Origin: an uncultured Spirochaetota bacterium
GTDB taxonomy: Bacteria > Spirochaetota > Spirochaetia > SZUA-6 > DRHE01
Assembly: GCA_963736785.1 (NCBI GenBank)
Contig: CAVTQG010000030.1
Coordinates: 7,206 to 71,205, forward strand
Reading direction: 5' to 3'
Length of the DNA stretch: 64,000 nucleotides
The notes under the pieces are model-generated. The model worked only from the letters and a program-made list of their open reading frames with translations, was not told the origin of the DNA and ran no database searches. Both the position numbers and the translations under genes were made by a program. Shown here in pieces: positions 56,131 to 63,876 of this stretch; the stretch's first letter is position 1, and every line of letters begins with the position of its first letter.

Positions 56131-58963
56131 GGATCACGGTCAACGGGCGCGCGCTGGAGGCGGCTTCGGGGCCGGCGCGCACGCTGCTGGACTGGCTGCG
56201 GGACGAGCTGGGGCTGACCGCGGCCAAGCGGGGCTGCGCGGAGGGACACTGCGGTTCCTGCACGGTGCTGGTCAACGGCCGGCCCGTGCTTTCCTGCCGC
56301 CAGCCCCTGGCCGGCCTGGACGGGGCGGAAGTGCTCACCCTGGAAGGGCTGGCCGCGCCCGGGAGGCTGCATCCGCTCCAGCAGGCCTTCATCCAGGAGG
56401 GGGCCGTGCAGTGCGGCTTCTGCACGCCGGGGATGATCCTGGCGGCCAAGGCGCTGCTGGACCGGGAGCCGCAGCCCACCGACCGGCAGATCGCCCGGGC
56501 CCTGGCGTCCAACCTCTGCCGCTGCACCGGCTACGTGAAAATCCTGAAGGCGGTGCACCGGGCCGCGGAGTGGCTGCGGCAAGGCCAGGACAGCTTCCCG
56601 CGCGCCGGCCTGCTGCCCGACGAGCCGGCGCCCTTCGGCCGGCCCGTGCCTCGCGTGGATGCCCTGGGCAAGGCCACCGGGGAGCTGAAGTTCGCCGAGG
56701 ACCTGCGCTTCCCCGGGCTGCTGCACGCCGCGGTGCTGCGCAGCGAGCATCCGCACGCCCGCATCGTGGAGCTGGACCCCGCCGCGGCCCGCGCCCGCCC
56801 GGGGGTGGTCGCGGTGCTCACGGCGCGGGACCTGCCCGGGCGCAACGCCTTCGGCCTGCTGGTGGCCGACCAGCCCGTGTTCGCCGCGGACAAGGTGCGC
56901 TGCGTGGGGGACGCCCTGGCCGCGGTGGTGGCCGAAAGCGAGGAGGCCGCCCGGGAGGCGCTGGAGCACATCCGCGTGCGCTACGAGCCTCTTCCCGTCA
57001 TCTCCAGCCCCGGGGAGGCCCTGGCTCCCGGAGCTGCGCGCGTGCACGAGCGGACGGCGGAGCGGGTGGGCAGCGAAGGCGGGCCGGAGGCTGGGCGGAG
57101 TCGAAGCGCTGCCGGCCAACGTGGTGGCGCGCAAGCGCTCCGGCCGGGGCGAGGTGGAGCGCGGCCTGGCCGAGGCGGAGGAGGTGCTGGAGGACGAGTA
57201 CTTCACGCCCTTCATCGAGCACGCCTACCTGGAGCCGGAGTGCGGCATCGGGGTGCCGGAGCCCGACGGCCGGGTCACGGTGCACGTGGGAAGCCAGGGG
57301 CCCTGGGAGGACCGGCGGCAGGTGGCCGCGGCCCTGGGCCTCGCCGAGGAGCGGGTGCGCATCGCCCACCTGCCCCTGGGCGGCGGCTTCGGCGGCAAGG
57401 AAGACGTCACGGTCCAGATCATCGCCGCCCTGGCCGCGCTGAAGACCGGCCGCCCGGTGCGCCTGCGCTTCGATCGCCGGGAATCCATCCGGGCCAGCGT
57501 GAAGCGGCACGCCGCCAGCCTCCGTTATACAACGGGGGTTAAGAAAGATGGCCAGATCACCGCCGTAAAGGCCCGCATCCTGGCGGACTCCGGCGCCTAC
57601 GCCTCGGTCGGGGAAGTGGTGATCCAGCGCGCGGTCAGCTTCGGGGCCGGCCCCTACGTGGTGCCGCACGCGGACATCGAGGCCCTGTGCGTGTACACCA
57701 ACAACCTGCCCGGCGGGGCCATGCGCGGCTTCGGCAACCCGCAGGCCACCTTCGCCGCGGAAGTGCAGCTGAACCGCCTGGCCGAGCGGCTGGGCCTGGA
57801 CCCTTTCGAGATCCGCCTGGCCAACATCCTCGAGGAGGGCAGGCCCACGGTCACCGGCGAGCGCATCCGCTCCAGCGTGGGCGCCCGGGCCTGCCTGGAG
57901 GCCGTGCGCGAAGCCCTGCGCCGCGCCCCGCCGCTCGCCCCGCGGGCCGGCTGGAAGGCCGGAACCGGCCTGGCCTGCTCCTACAAGAACGTGGGCCTGG
58001 GCACCGGCCTGGACGACTACGCCGGGGCGAGCGGCGAGATCCTGCCCGCGGGCCTGCTGCGGGTGCGGGTGGGCAGCGCGGACATGGGCCAGGGCTCGGA
58101 CACGGTCATGGCCCAGATCGCCTGCCAGGAGCTGGGCTGGCCCTACTCCCGGGTGGTGGTGGAATCCGGGGACACGGACCGCGACCCGGCCTCGCTGATC
58201 ACCACCGCCTCGCGCCAGACCTTCGTGTCGGGCAACGCGGTGCTGGCCATGGCGCGGGAGCTCAAGGCCCGGCTGCTGGAATGGCTGGCCGGGAGGTTCG
58301 GCGTCCCGGCGCAGGGCATCGGGCTGCGGGGGGACGCTTTCGTGGAGTCGGCCAGCGGCCGGAAGCTGGCCGCGCTGGACGGAATTGGCCGGGCTGGCCG
58401 CCGCCGACGGGGTGACGCTGAAGGCCGAGGTGCGCTACTCCGCGCCGCGCACCTGGCCGGACCTGCGCGAGCCGGGGGGCGGTTTCCCGGATGGCGAGCG
58501 GCGCCTGCACGCCGCCTACTGCTTCGGCGCCCAGGCCGTGAGCCTGGAGGTGGACCCGGCCAGCGGGCGCGTGAACGTGCTGCGCGTGATCGCGGCCTCC
58601 GACGCGGGCCGGGCCGTGAACCCGGCCAGCGTGGAGGGCCAGATGGAGGGGGGCGTGGTCATGGGCCTGGGCTACGCCCTGTCCGAGGAGTTCCGCCTGG
58701 AGCAGGGCCGCATCCTCACCGACACCCTGGCCCGCCTGGGCCTGTGGCGCGCCACCCAGGTGCCGCCCATCCAGTGCCTCATCGTCGAGAACCCGCACGA
58801 GGAAGGCCCCTACGGGGCCAAGGGCATGAGCGAGCTGCCCGTGTCCATGGCCGCCCCGGCCGTGGTGAGCGCGCTGCACGACGCCCTGGGCATCTGGCTC
58901 ACCCGCATCCCGGCCACCCCCGAGCGCATCCTGCAGGCCCTGGCCAAGGGAGGAAGCGCATGA
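56127..58963 (+). CDS. Fused 2Fe-2S + molybdopterin-binding hydroxylase (XdhD/aldehyde-oxidase-like, about 945 aa; frame breaks near 57080 and 58385)
   Basis: TTG start overlaps the upstream stop. RITVNGRA...[16 protein letters not shown]...[17 protein letters not shown]...[11 protein letters not shown], then [95 protein letters not shown]. Spread over track ORFs 56043.., 57121.. and 58385..58963. Confidence 0.85.
58843..58945 (+). repeat. Direct repeat copy 1 (103 bp, identical to 59632..59734)
   Basis: GTCCATGGCCGCCCCGGCCGTGGTGAGCGCGCTGCACGACGCCCTGGGCATCTGGCTCACCCGCATCCCGGCCACCCCCGAGCGCATCCTGCAGGCCCTGGCC was compared base by base with the second copy. Confidence 0.95.
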
Positions 58964-59580
58964 CCTTACGCTCTTGGGCGCGCTGCATAGCCGCCACGAT
59001 CCTTGTCCTGGGCGCTGTGGCCTGCTCCACCTTGGGCGGCGGGTTGGAAGCCGCGGAAGCGGCAGAAAAGCCCGAAAGCTTCCTGCCCGCGAATCCCTGC
59101 GACACCATTGCGTCCGCCAGTGAGCAGCGGTTGTACCGCCTGCTGATGGAGCACCGCCGCTCCCAGGGCTTGCCTCCGATTCCCTGGTCCTCGAGTCTTT
59201 CCTTCGTCGCCCGCGCCCATGTCCGCGATCTGCAGGCCCATCCGCCGTCGGGAAAGTGCAACTTCCACAGCTGGTCCGCGAATGGCCCCTGGACCCCCTG
59301 CTGCTATACGGACGACCACGCCCGGGCGCAGTGCATGTGGGACAAGCCCCGGGAGCTCACCCGCTACCCGGGAAACGGGTATGAAATCTCCGCCTGGAAC
59401 AGCGCCTCGCAGGATCCGGAGACGGCCCTTTCCTCCTGGAAGGGAAGTCCCCTGCACCACGCCGTGATCGTGAACTCCGGGGTCTGGGCCCGGATCCGGT
59501 GGAAAGCCGTGGGCGTCGGCATCTACGGTTCTTATGCCGTGGTCTGGTTCGGGGAGGAAGCCGATCCCTGTTTCGAGTAG
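58960..59580 (+). CDS. CAP/SCP/PR-1-like domain lipoprotein
   Basis: ATG overlaps the upstream stop (ATGA) and follows [34 protein letters not shown] has a lipobox. EQRLYRLLMEHRRSQGLPPIPWSSSLSFVARAHVRDL...SWKGSPLHHAVIVN..WKAVGVGI is CAP-like. It lies in the frame of track ORF 57121..59580. Confidence 0.8.
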   Translation: MTLRSWARCIAATILVLGAVACSTLGGGLEAAEAAEKPESFLPANPCDTIASASEQRLYRLLMEHRRSQGLPPIPWSSSLSFVARAHVRDLQAHPPSGKCNFHSWSANGPWTPCCYTDDHARAQCMWDKPRELTRYPGNGYEISAWNSASQDPETALSSWKGSPLHHAVIVNSGVWARIRWKAVGVGIYGSYAVVWFGEEADPCFE

Positions 59581-59631
59581 TTGAAGCCGGTCAGGGGAGA
59601 ACTCGCCCCTTCCGGCTCATTTGAGCGCGTC

Positions 59632-59743
59632 GTCCATGGCCGCCCCGGCCGTGGTGAGCGCGCTGCACGACGCCCTGGGCATCTGGCTCACCCGCATCCC
59701 GGCCACCCCCGAGCGCATCCTGCAGGCCCTGGCCGCGCGCTGA
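59632..59743 (+). pseudogene. Orphan 3'-terminal fragment of the Mo-hydroxylase gene (contains repeat copy 2, 59632..59734)
   Basis: In the correct frame it reads [36 protein letters not shown]-stop. Degenerate homology to the parent gene extends about 20 nt further upstream. Confidence 0.85.
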
Positions 59744-59823
59744 GCCCTGGTACTGCGCGTCGTGATTTCCGAAGGGGCTTCGTCCCCGAGTGGCTGGCTT
59801 ATTCGCCAACTATATGCCACGTG

Positions 59824-59871
59824 AAAAAGCAAAAAAGGAGGGCTGTCTGGAAATTGCATTCCCGACAGCCC
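59824..59871 (-). terminator. Rho-independent terminator of the DUF3494/repeat-protein transcription unit
   Basis: On the minus strand: GGGCTGTC(GGG) stem, 10-nt loop, GACAGCCC, then TCCTTTTTTGCTTTTTC. It lies 26 nt after the stop at 59897. Confidence 0.75.
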
Positions 59872-59896
59872 CCAGGCTACAGCCGCAGTAGCTCAG

Positions 59897-60214
59897 TTAG
59901 TTGGGGTACGTAAAGTCCTCATCGCCGGTGTGGGTGATGGTAATCGCAGCCGCACCGGTGGCAGTCACCGTGACGCGACCATTACCAGTGTTGGTAACCG
60001 TCACGGCGCCAGTGGCCGTGCTGTTGATCGTCATCACACCGTTGCCAGTGTTGGTCGCGGTAAGCGCCCCACCCGTGTTGACGATGTCGATCGTTCCCGT
60101 TCCGGTTTCAGTAGCCGCAACATGACCGCCGTTGTTTTCGACGTTGATGAAGCCGTTGCCCGGTACCGCGACCACGTCGGCCGCTGTGCTGCCCGTCACT
60201 GTAATGCTGGGCAC
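59897..60214 (-). CDS. Thr/Gly/Asn-rich decapeptide-repeat protein (T-x-T ladders); probably the C-terminal part of the upstream DUF3494 protein
   Basis: 105-aa ORF. About nine units such as ALTATNTGNG, VMTINSTATG, AVTVTNTGNG, RVTVTATGAA and AITITHTGDE. Its GTG start overlaps the upstream TAG by 1 nt (TAGTG), which equals one frame step from the upstream ORF. Confidence 0.55.
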   Translation of the reverse strand: MPSITVTGSTAADVVAVPGNGFINVENNGGHVAATETGTGTIDIVNTGGALTATNTGNGVMTINSTATGAVTVTNTGNGRVTVTATGAAAITITHTGDEDFTYPN

Positions 60215-61096
60215 TACTGCGGTTCAACGACGGGCACCACTACCGCCGGCACGCCGTTGGCGTTGATGACGGTGTTCACCATGGTGACCGATGCGAAGAG
60301 ACCCAACGCCCTGCCGTTCAGGGTCGTGAGGGTCAAGTTGCCAGCCGTCGAGAAGGTCATTCCCGCGCTCGCTATGATGGTTCCCACCATGGAGCCACCA
60401 CCGGCTCCGTTGATAGTCGCCGCGCTCCCTACCTGCCAGTAGACATTGCCGGCCTGGGCGCCGTTGACCAGAATGACGCTGCTCGGGGCCACCGGGGTAC
60501 CGACCGTGAGCGAGCTCGCCATCTGGAAGATCCACACCGCATCCGCGTTTCCCTGCGCATCGAGAGTAAGATCCGATCCCGTGATCAGGAATGCACCCGA
60601 AGCCGCTTTGTAGACACCGGGGAGGAGTGTAAGCCCGCCCAGCTGGCCCGCGCCGGGATCAATACCGTCGGGTCGTGAGGCCAGATCGTTGAATGCCGTC
60701 AGCGCATCAGCGGCGGCCGCCGTTGCAAACGCAAACGTATCTGCAGTTCCTTCCGGAGCGTCCGTATAAACGTTGCCATTCACCGCTCCAACATTCAGGG
60801 GCGTTTCCGCATAGCTGAAGGTTGAACTGTGAAATCCAGTGATCATCGTCGAAGCACCTGTGGTCCCCATATCCCCCGTAATCGCAGTCGCGGTTCCCTG
60901 GTTGGTAATGCCGGCACCACCACCAAAAACGGCGAAGGAAGCGGCCAAACCAAGGTTCGGCGCCTCAGAGCCTGTAAGAGCTATCCCTGCTGCGACACAT
61001 CGCTCAGCTCCGACATCATCGGGGAAGTGCATGCCGCGATAAAGGCCCAACATTAGAATCCCAAACCCGCCCAGAACCTCTCGTAAATGTTCTCAT
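60214..61096 (-). CDS. DUF3494 (ice-binding-like, IBP-1 fold) family protein
   Basis: Track ORF 60214..61053. LAASFAVFGGGAGITNQGTATAITGDMG, QLGGLTLLPGVYKAASGAFLITGSDLTLDAQGNADAVWIFQMASSLTVG, LVNGAQAGNVYWQVGSAATINGAGGGSMVGTIIASAGMTFSTAGNLTL..LNGRALG. An upstream ATG at 61096 plus a one-base frame correction yields a signal-peptide-like MRTFTR-VLGGFGILMLGLY. Confidence 0.75.
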
Positions 61097-61144
61097 CTTG
61101 TATACCTCTAATATTGAGAATATACATAATATAGCTAATAGTCA

Positions 61145-61170
61145 AGTATATTTAGTATATTAATTATACT
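61145..61170. promoter_or_regulatory. AGTATA/TATACT repeats in AT-rich divergent promoter region (candidate RHH operator)
   Basis: AGTATAT (61145-51), AGTATA-TTAAT-TATACT palindrome (61154-61170), and further TATAC half-sites at 61101 and 61121. It lies between the DUF3494 gene and the RHH gene. Confidence 0.35.
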
Positions 61171-61247
61171 ATCAATAGCTAAAGGATAGGGCACTTCCGT
61201 TGATATTTTGTGCCTTGTGCAATACTCTATGACTTGGAGGGACCATC

Positions 61248-61460
61248 ATGGGAGAGAAAAGAACGATGACGCTGAACCTTTCGGAAGAGGAGATGAACTC
61301 CTTGGACCAGTTGGCTCTCAGGAACGATATGAGCAAAACCGCGGTTATCAGGAAGGCCATTCGAATCTATCTTACTCTCGAGAAGAGAATGCAAAAGGGA
61401 GAGCACATATTCGTGGAAGATGACCTTCACCAGATAAGGGCCGAGTTGTTACTGGTGTGA
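61248..61460 (+). CDS. Ribbon-helix-helix (CopG/Arc/MetJ-like) DNA-binding protein
   Basis: GGAGG lies 8 nt upstream. MTLNLSEEEMNSLDQLALRNDMSKTAVIRKAIRIYL has the beta-strand plus two-helix pattern of RHH proteins. Confidence 0.7.
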   Translation: MGEKRTMTLNLSEEEMNSLDQLALRNDMSKTAVIRKAIRIYLTLEKRMQKGEHIFVEDDLHQIRAELLLV

Positions 61461-61505
61461 GCCAGACCAGCACTCTGTTGTAACTGCGTTAGGCGATAGT
61501 TTATC

Positions 61506-63098
61506 TTGAAAGCAAGGAGACAAGATACGTCCCGAAAAAAAACCGTAACAGGATCCCCGGAATACTCAGAGAGCATCATCAACACCGTACGGGAACCTTT
61601 GATAGCTCTGGATCAAGACTTACGGGTGGTTTCCGCCAGTCGTTCCTTCTATGGAGTTTTCAAGGTAAAGCCTGAAGAAACCGTGGGACAGCTCATTTAT
61701 GACCTGGGCAATAAGCAGTGGAATATCCCCAAGCTGCGGGAACTCCTGGAAACCATCCTTCCTCAAAAGACCTCCTTTGACAACTATGAGGTGGAACACG
61801 ATTTTACCACCATTGGCAGGCGCATCATGCTCTTGAATGCCCGGCAAATTCAAAGAGCGTCGGGGAAAGAGCGGATCATCCTGTTGGCCATCGAGGACAT
61901 CACCGAGCGAAGGGAGATAGAAAACGGGCTGGAAAAAACCCGCAGAGAACTGGAAGCAACGAAAATATCAGAAGATGAAGCCCGCGAATACGCCGAGAGC
62001 ATGATCAACACGGTGCGCGAGCCCCTACTCGTTCTGGATCAGGATCTGAGGGTAGTCACCGCCAGTCGTTCCTTCTATGGAGTTTTCAAGGTAAAGCCTG
62101 AAGAGACCGTGGGACAGCTCATTTATGACCTGGGCAATAAGCAGTGGAATATCCCCAAGCTGCGGGAACTCCTGGAAACCATCCTTCCTCAAAAGACCTC
62201 CTTTGACAACTATGAGGTGGAACACGATTTTACCACCATTGGCAGGCGCATCATGCTCTTGAATGCCCGGCAAATTCAAAGAGCGTCGGGGAAAGAGCGG
62301 ATCATCCTGTTGGCCATCGAGGACATCACCGAGCGAAGGGAAATAGAAAATGGGCTGGAAAAAGCCCATGAAGAGTTAGAGGAACTGGCCGCCGAGCTGA
62401 AACGTACCGCTCGGGTAAAGTCTGAGTTTCTGGCCAACATGTCGCATGAGCTACGGACACCGCTCAACTCCATTAACGGTTTCTCTGAGGTATTATACGA
62501 CGAAACGTTCGGGCCGCTGAATGAAAAACAGAAGATATACGTGAGCAACGTGTTATCCAGCGGAAAACACCTTCTCTTGCTGATCAACCAGATACTTGAT
62601 ATGGCCAAAGTTGAAGCCGGAAAGATGAAGCTGGCCTTATCCAGCTTACCCATGAAAAGAATATTGACGGAAATCTCAATGCTTGTTGCGGATATGGCCA
62701 GCAAGAAAAAGATTGATATGTCGATTGATATAGCCGAGGATCTGCCGGATATCGAGGCTGATGAGCTCAAGGTAAAAGAGATAATATACAACCTGCTTTC
62801 AAACGCAGTTAAGTTTACCACCGAAGGCGGCAAATTGGGCATGCGGGCGAAGAGAGCGGATTCCGAGATTGAAGTAGTGGTCTGGGATACGGGGGTCGGT
62901 ATCGCTCCTGAGAACATGGAAAGGATATTTGAGGGTTTTTTCCGTGTCGATACCCCATATTCTCGGTTGACCGAGGGGACCGGACTCGGTTTGCCGCTTG
63001 CTAGAAAGATGGTGGAGCTACATGGTGGGAAGCTGTTCTGTAGAATCGAAGGGCTTGAGGTGCGGCACCTCGGTCCGGTTTACTCTGCCTATTGCTAG
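61506..63098 (+). CDS. Sensor histidine kinase with two tandem PAS domains (TTG start assumed; frame break near 63040)
   Basis: Two PAS modules (INTVREPL..LDQDLRVV.ASRSFYGVFKVKPEETVGQLIYDLGNKQWNIPKLRELLE...LLAIEDITERRE), H-box FLANMSHELRTPLNSI, N-box LLSNAVKFT, and G-boxes DTGVGI and GTGLGLPLARKMVELHGG. The expected end VESKGL..GTSVRFTLPIA is in another frame. Confidence 0.85.
   Translation: MKARRQDTSRKKTVTGSPEYSESIINTVREPLIALDQDLRVVSASRSFYGVFKVKPEETVGQLIYDLGNKQWNIPKLRELLETILPQKTSFDNYEVEHDFTTIGRRIMLLNARQIQRASGKERIILLAIEDITERREIENGLEKTRRELEATKISEDEAREYAESMINTVREPLLVLDQDLRVVTASRSFYGVFKVKPEETVGQLIYDLGNKQWNIPKLRELLETILPQKTSFDNYEVEHDFTTIGRRIMLLNARQIQRASGKERIILLAIEDITERREIENGLEKAHEELEELAAELKRTARVKSEFLANMSHELRTPLNSINGFSEVLYDETFGPLNEKQKIYVSNVLSSGKHLLLLINQILDMAKVEAGKMKLALSSLPMKRILTEISMLVADMASKKKIDMSIDIAEDLPDIEADELKVKEIIYNLLSNAVKFTTEGGKLGMRAKRADSEIEVVVWDTGVGIAPENMERIFEGFFRVDTPYSRLTEGTGLGLPLARKMVELHGGKLFCRIEGLEVRHLGPVYSAYC
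61633..61940 (+). repeat. Intragenic duplication copy 1 (308 bp; 4 mismatches to 62059..62366)
   Basis: Aligned by eye at an offset of 426 nt (142 codons). The differences I saw are near 61679, 61916, 61925 and 61938. Confidence 0.9.
62059..62366 (+). repeat. Intragenic duplication copy 2
   Basis: See copy 1. It encodes the second PAS domain. Confidence 0.9.
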
Positions 63099-63116
63099 CC
63101 CGGAGAGAGGTGTGAA

Positions 63117-63482
63117 ATGCGGAAGAAAGCATTGATTGTCGACGACAATAGAAACAATCTTATGCTGGAAAAGGACCTTTTGGAGGTCGCTGGCTTCGAG
63201 GTTTTTACAGCCGAAAATGCTTCCAGCGGAATTGCCCTTGCCAGGAAGGAAAAACCGGACATTATCATCATGGATATGCGGCTTCCCGATATGCGTGGCT
63301 CCGAAGCCGCCAAGATATTGCTTCTAGATAATGAGACACGCAATATTCCTATCGTTTTTGTTACTGCTTCTGTGCTGGCGGAAGGCATAGAAGAGATAAA
63401 AGCCATACCGAATGCCGTATTCATTTGTAAGCCTATAAATACGCGTACCTTTGCGAAAGAAGTGATGCAATTCATGAAGTGA
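63117..63482 (+). CDS. Single-domain response regulator (CheY-like receiver)
   Basis: Intact 121-aa ORF. KALIVDDNRNNLMLEKDLLEVAGFEV, PDIIIMDMRLPDMRG, IPIVFVTAS, CKPI. Confidence 0.9.
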   Translation: MRKKALIVDDNRNNLMLEKDLLEVAGFEVFTAENASSGIALARKEKPDIIIMDMRLPDMRGSEAAKILLLDNETRNIPIVFVTASVLAEGIEEIKAIPNAVFICKPINTRTFAKEVMQFMK

Positions 63483-63512
63483 GTTGGATGCAGAGGCGGT
63501 GATGCCGGGCCC
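63471..63512 (+). repeat. 42-bp direct repeat copy 1 (40/42 identical to 63667..63708); spans the response-regulator stop codon
   Basis: TTCATGAAGTGAGTTGGATGCAGAGGCGGTGATGCCGGGCCC versus TTCATGAAGTGAGTTGGACGCAGAGGCGGTTATGCCGGGCCC. Confidence 0.9.
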
Positions 63513-63529
63513 CTCTGGTGGGGTCCGGC
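63504..63529 (+). terminator. GC-rich hairpin after the response-regulator gene (no T-tract)
   Basis: GCCGGGCCCC-TCTGGT-GGGGTCCGGC forms a 10-bp stem with one G.U pair. It is not followed by a U-run, so intrinsic-terminator status is doubtful. Confidence 0.3.
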
Positions 63530-63666: not shown

Positions 63667-63708
63667 TTCATGAAGTGAGTTGGACGCAGAGGCGGTTATG
63701 CCGGGCCC
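63667..63708 (+). repeat. 42-bp direct repeat copy 2
   Basis: See copy 1. It lies about 170 nt upstream of the transposase ATG. Confidence 0.9.
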
Positions 63709-63876
63709 ATTTGTCGATACAAATCTCGACCGCTGGGCCTGTATGATGTCTTATGTAAGGCTTCCTGAAAAAGTAGCAACTTGCTTTTCGGCAATGACTT
63801 GTGCTACATATTTTGCGGGAGGGCTGCAAGGGAAACAGGGCAAACCCTGAAAAACCCTTGCAGATCAAACGCCAGC

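What the first reader, a model, noticed from the sequence alone, without database searches (positions are those of the whole stretch)
59897..61096. DUF3494 ice-binding-like domain followed by a T-x-T decapeptide-repeat module: a possible two-architecture ice- or surface-binding protein
ORF 60214..61053 carries sequence hallmarks of the DUF3494 (IBP-1 beta-helix) family. Its TAG overlaps by one base the GTG of ORF 59897..60214, so the two ORFs differ by one frame step. Frame errors are rife here, so the two are probably one protein of about 400 aa. Likewise, an upstream ATG at 61096 plus a one-base correction supplies a signal-peptide-like N-terminus.

The downstream part is about nine tandem 10-residue units with consensus x-[VIM]-T-[VIA]-T-N-T-G-N-G (ALTATNTGNG, AVTVTNTGNG, RVTVTATGAA, AITITHTGDE). 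These form regularly spaced T-x-T dipeptides separated by Gly/Asn turns. This resembles the flat Thr ladders of insect beta-solenoid antifreeze proteins and the 10-residue periodicity of midge AFP.

I am not aware of a described protein combining a DUF3494 domain with such a module. The unit has its own clean terminator, an AT-rich promoter region with repeated GTATA/TATAC sites, and a divergent RHH regulator. DUF3494 proteins are widespread and many are not proven ice binders, so the function is open (ice, mineral or polysaccharide surface adhesion).
Basis: partly seen in the sequence, partly recalled or inferred. Interest (0 to 1): 0.7.

Follow-up and report, generated by a model that had tools for sequence, protein, structure and literature searches.

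The report
Frame-broken spirochaete DUF3494 lipoprotein gene
The two ORFs are one gene, broken by four small indels, for a roughly 397-residue spirochaete lipoprotein that joins an ice-binding-like DUF3494 beta-helix to a small threonine-ladder beta-solenoid domain; the family is common but unstudied, and nothing here shows that it binds ice.

Summary
ORF 60214..61053(-) is a strong DUF3494 match (PF11999, E 1.5e-53). ORF 59897..60214(-) has a true 10-residue periodicity (z 5.4).

The two ORFs are one gene. More than 100 homologue clusters of 395-410 aa cover both parts. The orthologue in a Danish soil/sediment Spirochaetota MAG (93% nt identity) is an intact 396-aa ORF.

The window copy has four frame breaks, not two: near 61079, 61048, 60979-60983 and 60217-60219. 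pN/pS of 0.11-0.21 matches intact orthologues, so assembly error is the likelier cause.

The true N-terminus is a lipoprotein signal with an invariant Cys.

The "decapeptide repeat" is a fixed 105-aa domain built from 20-residue, two-strand coils. It is a distant relative of DUF2807/Toastrack (hhalign 97.7%, E 1.7e-12). A conserved T-x-T ladder is inferred on one sheet. The domain also occurs alone or in several tandem copies (5 full-length, up to 7 matched stretches), and DUF3494 is its only recurrent partner.

The gene sits in a conserved low-GC cassette with a divergent RHH regulator, a PAS histidine kinase and a response regulator.

Relatives come from aquifers, soils, lake sediments and Leptospira weilii, so ice binding is unproven. 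A surface-binding adhesin is the best reading.

Novelty is modest: a new member of multidomain DUF3494 surface proteins.

The parts
59897..61096 (-). Whole gene for the DUF3494 + Thr-ladder-module lipoprotein (about 397 aa once four frame breaks are repaired)
   Evidence: tblastn of the closest homologue P0036 (about 96% aa identity) maps to three frames: 61046-60984, 60981-60229 and 60217-59900, with the ATG at 61096 in a fourth frame segment. More than 100 full-length homologue clusters cover 100% of the joined query. The orthologue L013 2128..3318 is an intact 396-aa ORF.
61029..61096 (-). Lipoprotein signal peptide MRTFTRVLGGFGILMLAFIAAC (lipobox IAAC; Cys codon 61031-61029), interrupted by two 1-nt insertions near 61079 and 61048
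   Evidence: Frame -3 of the window reads AFIAACTSPMMSELSDVSQQG, which matches P0036 and P0033. The Cys is invariant in 84 aligned full-length sequences. Indels relative to L001 are listed.
60979..60983 (-). Third frame break (net 4 nt missing relative to L001), in the flexible tether between the lipobox and the DUF3494 domain
   Evidence: Nucleotide alignment with L001; the frame changes from -3 to -2 in tblastn.
60262..60921 (-). DUF3494 / IBP-1 beta-helix domain
   Evidence: PF11999 E 1.5e-53 over residues 45-264 of ORF 60214..61053. The AF2 model of P0033 (95% identical) has pLDDT above 90 here, with the long helix at 119-140. Foldseek matches solved IBPs 6eio, 6bg8, 9lhn, 7bwy, 3uyv, 4nu2 and 3wp9 at E 1e-9 to 5e-13 and TM (target) 0.78-0.91.
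60215..60261 (-). Pro/Val-rich interdomain linker (NANGVPAVVVPVVEP...), containing the fourth frame break at 60217-60219. This break creates the apparent TAG/GTG overlap.
   Evidence: P0001 and P0032 read ...PVVEPPVVPSITVTG... continuously. Relative to L001 the window has 2 extra nt here. The linker has pLDDT below 50 in the model.
59900..60214 (-). 105-aa Thr-ladder beta-solenoid module: five coils of about 20 residues marked by a G-x-G turn (PGNG, TGTG, TGNG, TGNG), the last coil being the cap TGDEDFTYP. Stop codon at 59897-59899.
   Evidence: Periodicity. AF2 on the window sequence gives pLDDT 78.3, pTM 0.75 and ten short strands. hhalign against DUF2807 proteins gives 97.7% probability, E 1.7e-12, with column-shuffle controls. 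Presumed exposed Thr positions are 81-97% conserved in 172 copies.
59822..59873 (-). Intrinsic terminator: hairpin 59873-59838, then a U-run
   Evidence: Fold of -28.6 kcal/mol, z -3.95, 0 of 200 shuffles as stable. The hairpin and T-run are conserved in L001 and L002.
61097..61247 (.). Divergent AT-rich (32% GC) control region. It holds a -35-like TTGACT (61145-61140), a TAGCTA palindrome (61137-61132), a -10-like TATATT/TATTCT (61124-61117) and an AGAGG ribosome-binding site (61109-61105).
   Evidence: Promoter scan. An alignment of 10 distinct genomes shows a conserved ATACTTG..TAGCTA..GTATA..AGAGGTAYA core. L002 carries the symmetric variant TGGCCA.
61248..61460 (+). Divergent 70-aa ribbon-helix-helix regulator
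   Evidence: PF01402 E 5e-6. It is the divergent neighbour at 75-100% aa identity in 10 distinct genomes.
61506..63135 (+). Cytoplasmic PAS-PAS-HisKA-HATPase histidine kinase, with one frame break roughly between 63040 and 63098
   Evidence: Pfam. ORF 62998..63135 carries the missing HATPase C-terminal end in another frame. Its position is conserved in L002, L009 and L011.
63117..63482 (+). Single-domain response regulator, the last gene of the low-GC cassette
   Evidence: PF00072 E 3.6e-19. Similarity to L002 ends at 63483.

Best explanation
Window 59897-61096(-) is a single gene for a spirochaetal lipoprotein of about 397 residues.

Shown:
- The product has a lipoprotein signal peptide with an invariant Cys, then a tether of about 25 residues that the model places at very low confidence (pLDDT about 36).
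- Next comes a canonical DUF3494/IBP-1 beta-helix, then a Pro/Val-rich linker, then a 105-residue beta-rich module.
- The module is built of about five 20-residue coils, with two strands per coil and alternating T-G-x-G and N-x-G-G turns.
- The module is a distant, shortened relative of the DUF2807/DUF4097 'Toastrack/GIN' beta-helix.
- The gene is one arm of a conserved, compositionally distinct (low-GC) four-gene cassette. The other arm encodes an RHH regulator, a PAS histidine kinase and a response regulator. The two arms share a conserved divergent promoter region.

Inferred:
- The four frame breaks in the window are most likely indel errors of a long-read assembly (about 0.8), not decay.
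- The protein is lipid-anchored at the cell envelope and acts as a surface-binding protein or adhesin.
- It presents two flat, hydroxyl-rich beta faces to a repetitive hydroxylated surface, such as a polysaccharide or matrix, or possibly ice in seasonally frozen soil or sediment. One face is the DUF3494 b-face. The other is the A/T-x-T ladder of the module (A33/T52/T72/T92 and T35/T54/T74/T94).
- The RHH protein probably represses the promoter through the TAGCTA palindrome that lies between the -35 and -10 elements.
- The PAS kinase and response regulator probably set when the gene is expressed.
For: Single gene:
- More than 100 homologue clusters of 395-410 aa have 100% coverage and 70-90% identity.
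- Homologues read continuously across the junction.
- Intact orthologues are L013 (396 aa) and L001.

Frame breaks are probably errors:
- All four are located against L001.
- Neighbouring genes are also broken: XDH twice and the HK once.
- pN/pS for the window against L013 is 0.11 and against L001 is 0.21. The two intact orthologues compared with each other give 0.16.
- The closest genomes are Nanopore MAGs from Danish soil and sediment (PMC12313526).

Lipoprotein: Cys22 is invariant and the frame -3 segment matches.

DUF3494 fold.

Module:
- Periodicity and ordered AF2 model.
- The profile finds only 116 representative proteins in 1.84e9. Its weak tail consists of bona fide PF10988/PF13349 proteins.
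- hhalign gives 97.7% probability, and 15 column shuffles score 19 or less against 76.9.
- The module occurs alone as a lipoprotein of about 150 aa, in several tandem copies per protein (5 full-length copies, up to 7 matched stretches), and on either side of DUF3494.
- DUF3494 is its only recurrent partner, in 14 of 56 representatives.
- Presumed exposed Thr positions are 81-97% conserved.

Adhesin analogy: the DUF2807 protein PGN_1547 is needed for biofilm formation and host-cell attachment (PMC10949514). [quoted passage not shown]

Cassette: synteny, GC content, conserved promoter and terminator.
Against: - No binding partner is known, and no experiment exists for any member of this family.
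- Foldseek found no significant solved-structure match for the module (best E 3.2).
- The window module scores below the PF10988 gathering cut-off (18.6 against 24.2 bits).
- Frame-break density in this gene (4 in 1.2 kb) is higher than in its neighbours (3 in about 5 kb; post-hoc Poisson p about 0.006). A very recent pseudogene is therefore not excluded.
- Whether the protein faces the outside or the periplasm is unknown for spirochaetal lipoproteins.
- RHH binding to TAGCTA is inferred from position and conservation only.
Confidence: 0.6

Rival explanations
1. It is a genuine ice-binding protein with two ice-binding surfaces. The DUF3494 b-face and the module's T-x-T ladder both dock onto ice, tethering or protecting soil and sediment spirochaetes during freezing.
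For: - The DUF3494 domain is 26-34% identical to experimentally active IBPs and superposes on them at TM 0.78-0.91.
- The module has a conserved two-column Thr array on an inferred flat sheet. This is the geometry used by insect beta-solenoid AFPs (own knowledge).
- DUF3494 is the module's only recurrent partner.
- Some carriers come from boreal lakes and from soils that freeze seasonally.
Against: - Relatives are mostly from aquifers, temperate soils and sediments, and the mesophile Leptospira weilii.
- The match to NCBIfam IBP_CFB is 72 bits against a cut-off of 400.
- The ladder has only four rungs.
- No sequence rule separates active from inactive DUF3494 proteins.
- No activity data exist.
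Confidence: 0.15
2. The window copy is a true pseudogene. The four indels are real mutations in this strain, and no full-length protein is made.
For: There are four frame-shifting indels in 1.2 kb against about 0.6 per kb in neighbouring genes. None occur in the adjacent RHH and response-regulator genes.
Against: - pN/pS of 0.11-0.21 equals that between intact orthologues, and 50 of 67 differences from L013 are at third codon positions.
- There are no in-frame stops within the frame segments.
- The promoter, ribosome-binding site and terminator are intact and conserved.
- Other genes in the window are also frame-broken, while their L013 orthologue is intact.
Confidence: 0.2
3. They are two separate, translationally coupled genes: a DUF3494 protein and a 105-aa repeat protein that starts at the GTG overlapping the TAG.
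For: A TAG/GTG one-base overlap is a common coupling arrangement. Stand-alone module proteins do exist elsewhere.
Against: - All stand-alone module proteins carry their own signal or lipoprotein peptide of about 45 residues, which this ORF lacks.
- Every close orthologue is one continuous ORF.
- The junction differs from them only by a 1-2 nt indel.
Confidence: 0.03
4. The module is an envelope-stress or signalling Toastrack domain, like LiaG/LiaF or PspC partners, that feeds the adjacent two-component system. It is not a binding surface.
For: The module is homologous to the Toastrack superfamily, whose members associate with Psp/Lia stress systems (PMC11237479). It has a conserved neighbourhood with an HK and RR.
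Against: - The kinase is a soluble PAS type with no membrane or periplasmic sensor domain.
- No PspC, LiaI or LiaF-TM genes are nearby.
- The module lacks the N-terminal intertwined part of Toastrack. It occurs in long tandem arrays and with Ig-like or cadherin-type adhesin domains.
- Leptospira copies have no HK or RR neighbour.
Confidence: 0.07

Closest known systems
Multidomain bacterial DUF3494 (IBP-1) surface proteins, e.g. Shewanella frigidimarina SfIBP_1 (PDB 6bg8), Flavobacteriaceae IBPv (5uyt) and EfcIBP (6eio)
   Same: PF11999 domain with the IBP-1 beta-helix-plus-helix fold. It has an N-terminal secretion or lipoprotein signal and an extra non-catalytic beta-rich domain. Multidomain DUF3494 architectures are common: 237 architectures in Pfam and 116 in Arctic metagenomes (PMC9957290).
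   Different: The partner domain here is a Thr-ladder, Toastrack-like solenoid rather than Ig-like, TSP3, DUF4842 or PEP-CTERM. The hosts are high-GC Spirochaetota from soils, sediments and aquifers plus Leptospira, not ice-associated taxa. Ice binding is untested.
DUF2807 (GIN domain) / DUF4097 'Toastrack' beta-helix proteins, e.g. Bacteroidales lipoprotein adhesin PGN_1547 and JCSG structures 3LJY, 3PET and 4OPW
   Same: Coils of about 20 residues are marked by a G-x-G turn (GSGD there, TG[NT]G here). Profile-profile probability is 97.7% over 83 columns. Both are often lipoproteins. PGN_1547 has an experimentally supported adhesin role (PMC10949514).
   Different: Only the last four to five coils are present (105 aa against about 180-250). 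The unique N-terminal intertwined region of Toastrack (PMC11237479) is absent. The composition is Thr/Asn/Gly-rich with a conserved T-x-T face. The Pfam score is below the cut-off for the single-copy form. There is no Foldseek match.
Insect beta-solenoid antifreeze proteins (Tenebrio TmAFP, spruce budworm AFP) and midge AFP
   Same: In-register T-x-T motifs on parallel strands of a solenoid, with the middle residue pointing inward (inferred; AFP features from own knowledge).
   Different: There is no detectable sequence or fold relation. Coil length is 20 residues with two sheets, against 12, 15 or 10. There are no disulfide or Tyr ladders and only four rungs. The resemblance is at most convergent.

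Membership tests
DUF3494 / IBP-1 (Pfam PF11999) | Sequence match to the family model above the curated threshold | tested here: met
   182 bits against a cut-off of 28.7, E 1.5e-53, model positions 3-208 of 208. The frame-corrected protein gives the same result.
DUF3494 / IBP-1 (Pfam PF11999) | Discontinuous beta-helix braced by one long alpha-helix (IBP-1 fold) | tested here: met
   The AF2 model of P0033 (95% identical to the corrected window protein) has pLDDT above 90 and a helix at 119-140. Foldseek to 6eio, 9lhn, 7bwy, 3uyv and 4nu2 gives E down to 5e-13 and TM (target) up to 0.91. The window's own corrected sequence could not be submitted.
DUF3494 / IBP-1 (Pfam PF11999) | Ice-binding activity (thermal hysteresis, recrystallisation inhibition, ice shaping) | not testable with these tools
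   This needs recombinant protein. NCBIfam equivalog IBP_CFB scored 72 bits against a cut-off of 400, so it is not an equivalog of a validated IBP.
DUF3494 / IBP-1 (Pfam PF11999) | Occurrence in ice-associated organisms or habitats | tested here: inconclusive
   Carriers are MAGs from Danish soil and sediment, the Rifle and Horonobe aquifers and lake sediments, plus Leptospira weilii. None is a dedicated ice habitat, though some sites freeze seasonally.
DUF2807 (PF10988) / DUF4097 Toastrack superfamily | Match to the Pfam model above the gathering threshold | tested here: not met
   The window module scores 18.6 bits against a cut-off of 24.2. The multi-copy relative P0152 passes at 30.9 bits.
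DUF2807 (PF10988) / DUF4097 Toastrack superfamily | Remote homology by profile methods | tested here: met
   The module profile retrieves bona fide PF10988/PF13349 proteins at E 1e-4 to 1e-6 in 1.84e9 proteins. hhalign gives 97.7% probability, E 1.7e-12, over 83 columns. Fifteen column-shuffled controls scored 19 or less against 76.9.
DUF2807 (PF10988) / DUF4097 Toastrack superfamily | [quoted passage not shown] | tested here: not met
   The alignment covers only the C-terminal coils (template positions 153-236 of 266). The module is 105 aa. Foldseek against the PDB gave no match better than E 3.2.
Insect-type T-x-T beta-solenoid antifreeze proteins | Regular array of outward Thr (T-x-T) on one flat sheet | tested here: inconclusive
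   Strand register from DSSP places A33/T52/T72/T92 and T35/T54/T74/T94 in two columns, with the Thr positions 81-97% conserved. Flatness and orientation could not be measured without coordinates.
Insect-type T-x-T beta-solenoid antifreeze proteins | Family-specific coil length and core (12-residue Cys-bonded coils, 15-residue coils, or 10-residue midge coils) | tested here: not met
   Two turn types alternate, giving a 20-residue coil. There are no Cys residues. No sequence or fold hit to any AFP was found.
Bacterial lipoproteins | Signal peptide ending in a lipobox with an invariant Cys | tested here: met
   The corrected N-terminus is MRTFTRVLGGFGILMLAFIAAC. The Cys is invariant in 84 homologues. 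No dedicated predictor was available, and lipidation itself is not testable here.

The most novel reading that the evidence does not exclude
The 105-residue module is an independent ice-binding or ordered-water-binding beta-solenoid that evolved from the Toastrack fold. It would be convergent with insect T-x-T antifreeze proteins. On this reading the DUF3494+module lipoproteins, and the proteins with several tandem modules, are bivalent or multivalent ice adhesins. Soil, sediment and aquifer bacteria would switch them on through the PAS-kinase / response-regulator / RHH cassette.
Probability: 0.1. Interest if true: 0.65.

Novelty: new member of a known kind. Interest (0 to 1): 0.3.

Why it matters
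The work turns two puzzling ORFs into one well-defined gene and shows that apparent gene overlaps in this window are indel artefacts.

It also defines a compact, conserved domain of about 105 aa. The domain is a Thr-ladder offshoot of DUF2807/Toastrack and has no Pfam model of its own. It is repeatedly fused to DUF3494 in non-polar bacteria.

DUF3494 proteins outside icy habitats are an open functional question (ice binding versus general surface binding). This family has a cultivable carrier (Leptospira weilii), a small separable module and a dedicated regulatory cassette. That makes it a tractable test case, though not a surprising one.

Tried and rejected
1. Chimeric assembly at about 59.8 kb. 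I suspected this from the GC drop (74% to 47-61%), from the point where similarity to L001 and L002 ends, and from the 103-nt exact repeat. I rejected it because the independent MAG contig L013 carries the same XDH / DUF3494 / RHH / HK order, and because the flanking genes of related spirochaete loci are themselves 64-69% GC.
2. Two exact-pattern scans of metagenome contigs for the junction and the terminator found nothing.
3. The DNA-level tandem repeat search found none in the module.
4. A profile search of PDB sequences with the module gave nothing significant (best E 0.007, to a designed protein).
5. Foldseek of the module model against the PDB gave no hit below E 3. The top insignificant hits were other beta-solenoids.
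7. The search for related loci with the 51-sequence module alignment failed. The 14-sequence alignment worked.
8. Literature searches for DUF3494 with spirochaetes or Leptospira, and for the module's motifs, found no description of this family. One 'ice-binding' mention in a spirochaete flagella preprint was irrelevant.
9. The reading as two coupled genes was rejected (see rival explanations).
Full report
**Observation.** ORF 60214..61053(-) (279 aa) matches Pfam PF11999 (Ice_binding/DUF3494) at E 1.5e-53 over nearly the whole model. Its TAG shares one base with the GTG of ORF 59897..60214(-). The 105-aa downstream ORF is periodic. BLOSUM self-similarity peaks at offset 10 (z 5.4 against shuffles), 20 (4.2) and 30 (3.5). 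No tandem repeat exists at the DNA level. The terminator (a fold of -28.6 kcal/mol, z -3.95, plus a U-run), the AT-rich upstream spacer (32% GC) and the divergent RHH gene (PF01402, E 5e-6) are all present.

**One gene or two.**
- A search with the 105-aa ORF alone returned 31 proteins of two kinds.
  - The first kind reads continuously from the end of a DUF3494 domain into the module. P0001, at 96% identity, reads ...PVVEPPVVPSITVTG..., where the window reads ...PVVEPQ* followed by VPSITVTG.
  - The second kind is stand-alone proteins of about 150 aa, in which a signal or lipoprotein peptide precedes the same module.
- A search with the joined protein returned more than 100 clusters of 395-410 aa with 100% coverage and 70-90% identity. 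Nearly all are from Spirochaetota MAGs, plus Leptospira weilii. They are named 'ice-binding family protein' or 'DUF3494 domain-containing protein'.
- tblastn of the closest homologue places consecutive parts of one protein in three window frames, with the ATG at 61096 in a fourth segment.
- Nucleotide alignment with the 95.6%-identical contig L001 pins the frame breaks:
  - 61079 (+1 nt)
  - 61048 (+1 nt)
  - 60979-60983 (net -4 nt)
  - 60217-60219 (+2 nt)
- The orthologue in MAG contig L013 (uncultured Spirochaetota MFD05674.bin.2.117; 93% nt identity) is an intact 396-aa ORF.
- The repaired N-terminus, MRTFTRVLGGFGILMLAFIAAC/TSP..., is a lipoprotein signal whose Cys is invariant in 84 homologues.

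**Errors or decay.**
- Neighbouring genes are also frame-broken. The xanthine-dehydrogenase-like (XDH) gene is broken at 57090-57096 and 58380, although it is intact in L013. The histidine kinase is broken near 63040-63098.
- The closest genomes are Nanopore MAGs from Danish soils and sediments (PMC12313526).
- The break density here (4 in 1.2 kb) exceeds that of the neighbours (3 in about 5 kb; post-hoc Poisson p about 0.006).
- Substitutions show no relaxation of selection, however. pN/pS is 0.11 against L013 and 0.21 against L001, compared with 0.16 between the two intact orthologues. Differences fall mostly at third codon positions.
- I put assembly error at about 0.8 and a very recent pseudogene at about 0.2.

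**Genomic setting.**
- I first suspected a chimeric join at about 59.8 kb because of the GC jump and a 103-nt exact repeat.
- L013 refutes this. It carries the same order, XDH converging on the DUF3494 gene, followed by RHH and HK.
- Related spirochaete loci have 64-69% GC in flanking housekeeping-type genes. In the same loci the RR, HK and RHH genes are 46-57% GC and the DUF3494 gene is 60-64%.
- The RHH gene is the divergent neighbour in 10 distinct genomes.
- The PAS kinase and response regulator accompany the gene in every non-Leptospira context examined, and the outer flanks differ each time. This is a four-gene, low-GC cassette found at different chromosomal sites.
- Leptospira and Fibrobacteres copies lack the regulators.
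- The intergenic region keeps a conserved core across these genomes: ATACTTGAC..TAGCTA..GTATA..AGAGGTAYA..ATG.
- The TAGCTA palindrome between the -35 and -10 elements is a plausible RHH operator, and L002 carries the symmetric variant TGGCCA. This is inference only.

**The DUF3494 domain.** The AF2 model of P0033 (95% identical to the corrected window protein) has pLDDT above 90 across the domain and shows the characteristic long helix. Foldseek matches solved ice-binding proteins (6eio, 6bg8, 9lhn, 7bwy, 3uyv, 4nu2, 3wp9) at E 1e-9 to 5e-13, TM (target) 0.78-0.91 and 26-34% identity. Membership of the family is secure. Ice-binding activity is not.

**The module.**
- It has a fixed length of 104-106 aa in 159 of 177 unique copies.
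- AF2 on the window sequence gives pLDDT 78.3 and pTM 0.75, with ten 5-residue strands. It is ordered, not disordered.
- Two turn types alternate. T-G-x-G turns fall at positions 18-21, 37-40, 56-59, 76-79 and 96-99. N-x-G-G type turns fall in between. The structural unit is therefore a 20-residue, two-strand coil, and there are about five coils.
- A profile of the module finds only 116 representative proteins among 1.84 billion. The weak tail of these hits consists of bona fide DUF2807/DUF4097 (Toastrack/GIN) proteins.
- hhalign of the module against those proteins gives 97.7% probability and E 1.7e-12 over 83 columns, with TG[NT]G aligned to GSGD. Fifteen column-shuffled controls reach a score of 19 or less, against 76.9 for the real alignment.
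- Three results weaken the link. The window module falls below the PF10988 cut-off. It lacks the N-terminal half of Toastrack. It has no significant Foldseek or PDB-sequence match.
- I therefore call it a distant, shortened relative of Toastrack, not a member.
- The strand register places A33/T52/T72/T92 and T35/T54/T74/T94 as two outward columns on one sheet, with hydrophobic residues pointing inward between them. The Thr positions are 81-97% conserved in 172 copies, which is as high as the core. The orientation is inferred, because no coordinates were available.
- The module also occurs in other arrangements:
  - as a stand-alone lipoprotein;
  - in several tandem copies per protein (5 full-length copies by my domain count, up to 7 matched stretches in the representative search);
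  - before or after DUF3494;
  - with a C-terminal membrane anchor;
  - with Ig-like domains.
- DUF3494 is its only recurrent partner, in 14 of 56 representatives.
- Carriers span Spirochaetota, Leptospira, Fibrobacteres, Latescibacterota, Geobacter and other Deltaproteobacteria, Gallionella, Burkholderiales, Nitrosomonadales and Thiotrichales.

**Function.** The best-supported reading is a lipid-anchored envelope protein that binds a repetitive surface through two flat beta faces. Three observations support it:
- Its composition is secretion signal plus two beta-solenoids.
- A DUF2807 protein has a demonstrated adhesin role (PMC10949514).
- DUF3494 proteins are currently viewed as ice-binding or substrate-binding proteins, often fused to adhesion domains (PMC12337378, PMC9957290).

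Ice binding remains possible, given the IBP fold and the T-x-T ladder. It receives no support from the habitats of the carriers or from the presence of the gene in Leptospira weilii. I give it about 0.15.

**Novelty.** No paper in the library describes this family or its motifs. Even so, the architecture is abundant in sequence databases, and multidomain DUF3494 proteins are well known. The gene is therefore a new member of a known kind. The small Thr-ladder Toastrack-like domain is the one feature worth a follow-up experiment.

Noticed in passing
window 58843-59734: An exact 103-nt direct repeat (58843-58945 = 59632-59734) duplicates the 3' end of the XDH-like gene. It brackets an extra segment that encodes a 206-aa CAP/SCP-family lipoprotein (about 58968-59580; PF00188, E 1.5e-6). 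The orthologous MAG contig L013 lacks the whole 789-nt unit. This is either a real cassette insertion with a long target duplication or an assembly artefact.
   Followed up: partly
window 59822-63483; L002, L009, L011: The DUF3494 gene plus the RHH, PAS-kinase and response-regulator genes form a low-GC island (46-64% GC) inside 64-69% GC spirochaete genomes. The island lies between different flanking genes in different genomes, which suggests a horizontally moving four-gene cassette. No mobility genes were seen.
   Followed up: partly
window 63471-63517 and 63667-63713: A 47-nt direct repeat (91% identity) begins with the last codons and stop of the response-regulator gene. This is exactly where similarity to L002 ends. 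It mirrors the 3'-end duplication on the other side of the cassette.
   Followed up: no
window 61536-61835 and 61962-62261: A 300-nt direct repeat (89% identity) inside the histidine-kinase gene encodes two near-identical PAS domains. Orthologues have one PAS domain (L009, 379 aa) or two (L011, 525 aa). L013 and L002 have frame problems in this gene.
   Followed up: partly
window 57090-57096, 58380, and about 63040-63098: There are further frame breaks in the XDH-like gene (two) and in the kinase gene (one), relative to intact orthologues. This is consistent with an indel-prone assembly across the window.
   Followed up: yes
window 61132-61137; L002 intergenic region: The TAGCTA palindrome between the -35-like and -10-like elements is conserved in 8 of 10 genomes. 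L002 replaces it with the symmetric TGGCCA, a double change that preserves the palindrome, as expected for an operator.
   Followed up: partly
proteins P0005, P0163, P0178, P0190; loci L014/L015, L031/L034/L040: There are odd relatives of the module: a DUF3494 deletion variant joined directly to the module (P0005), a Cys-rich protein with three modules (P0163), and a 969-aa protein ending in an extended module (P0178). A eukaryote-like CH-LIM-bMERB protein (P0190) also matches the module profile at E 5e-17 and DUF2807 at E 1e-9. Some spirochaete MAGs carry two or three paralogous DUF3494+module genes.
   Followed up: no
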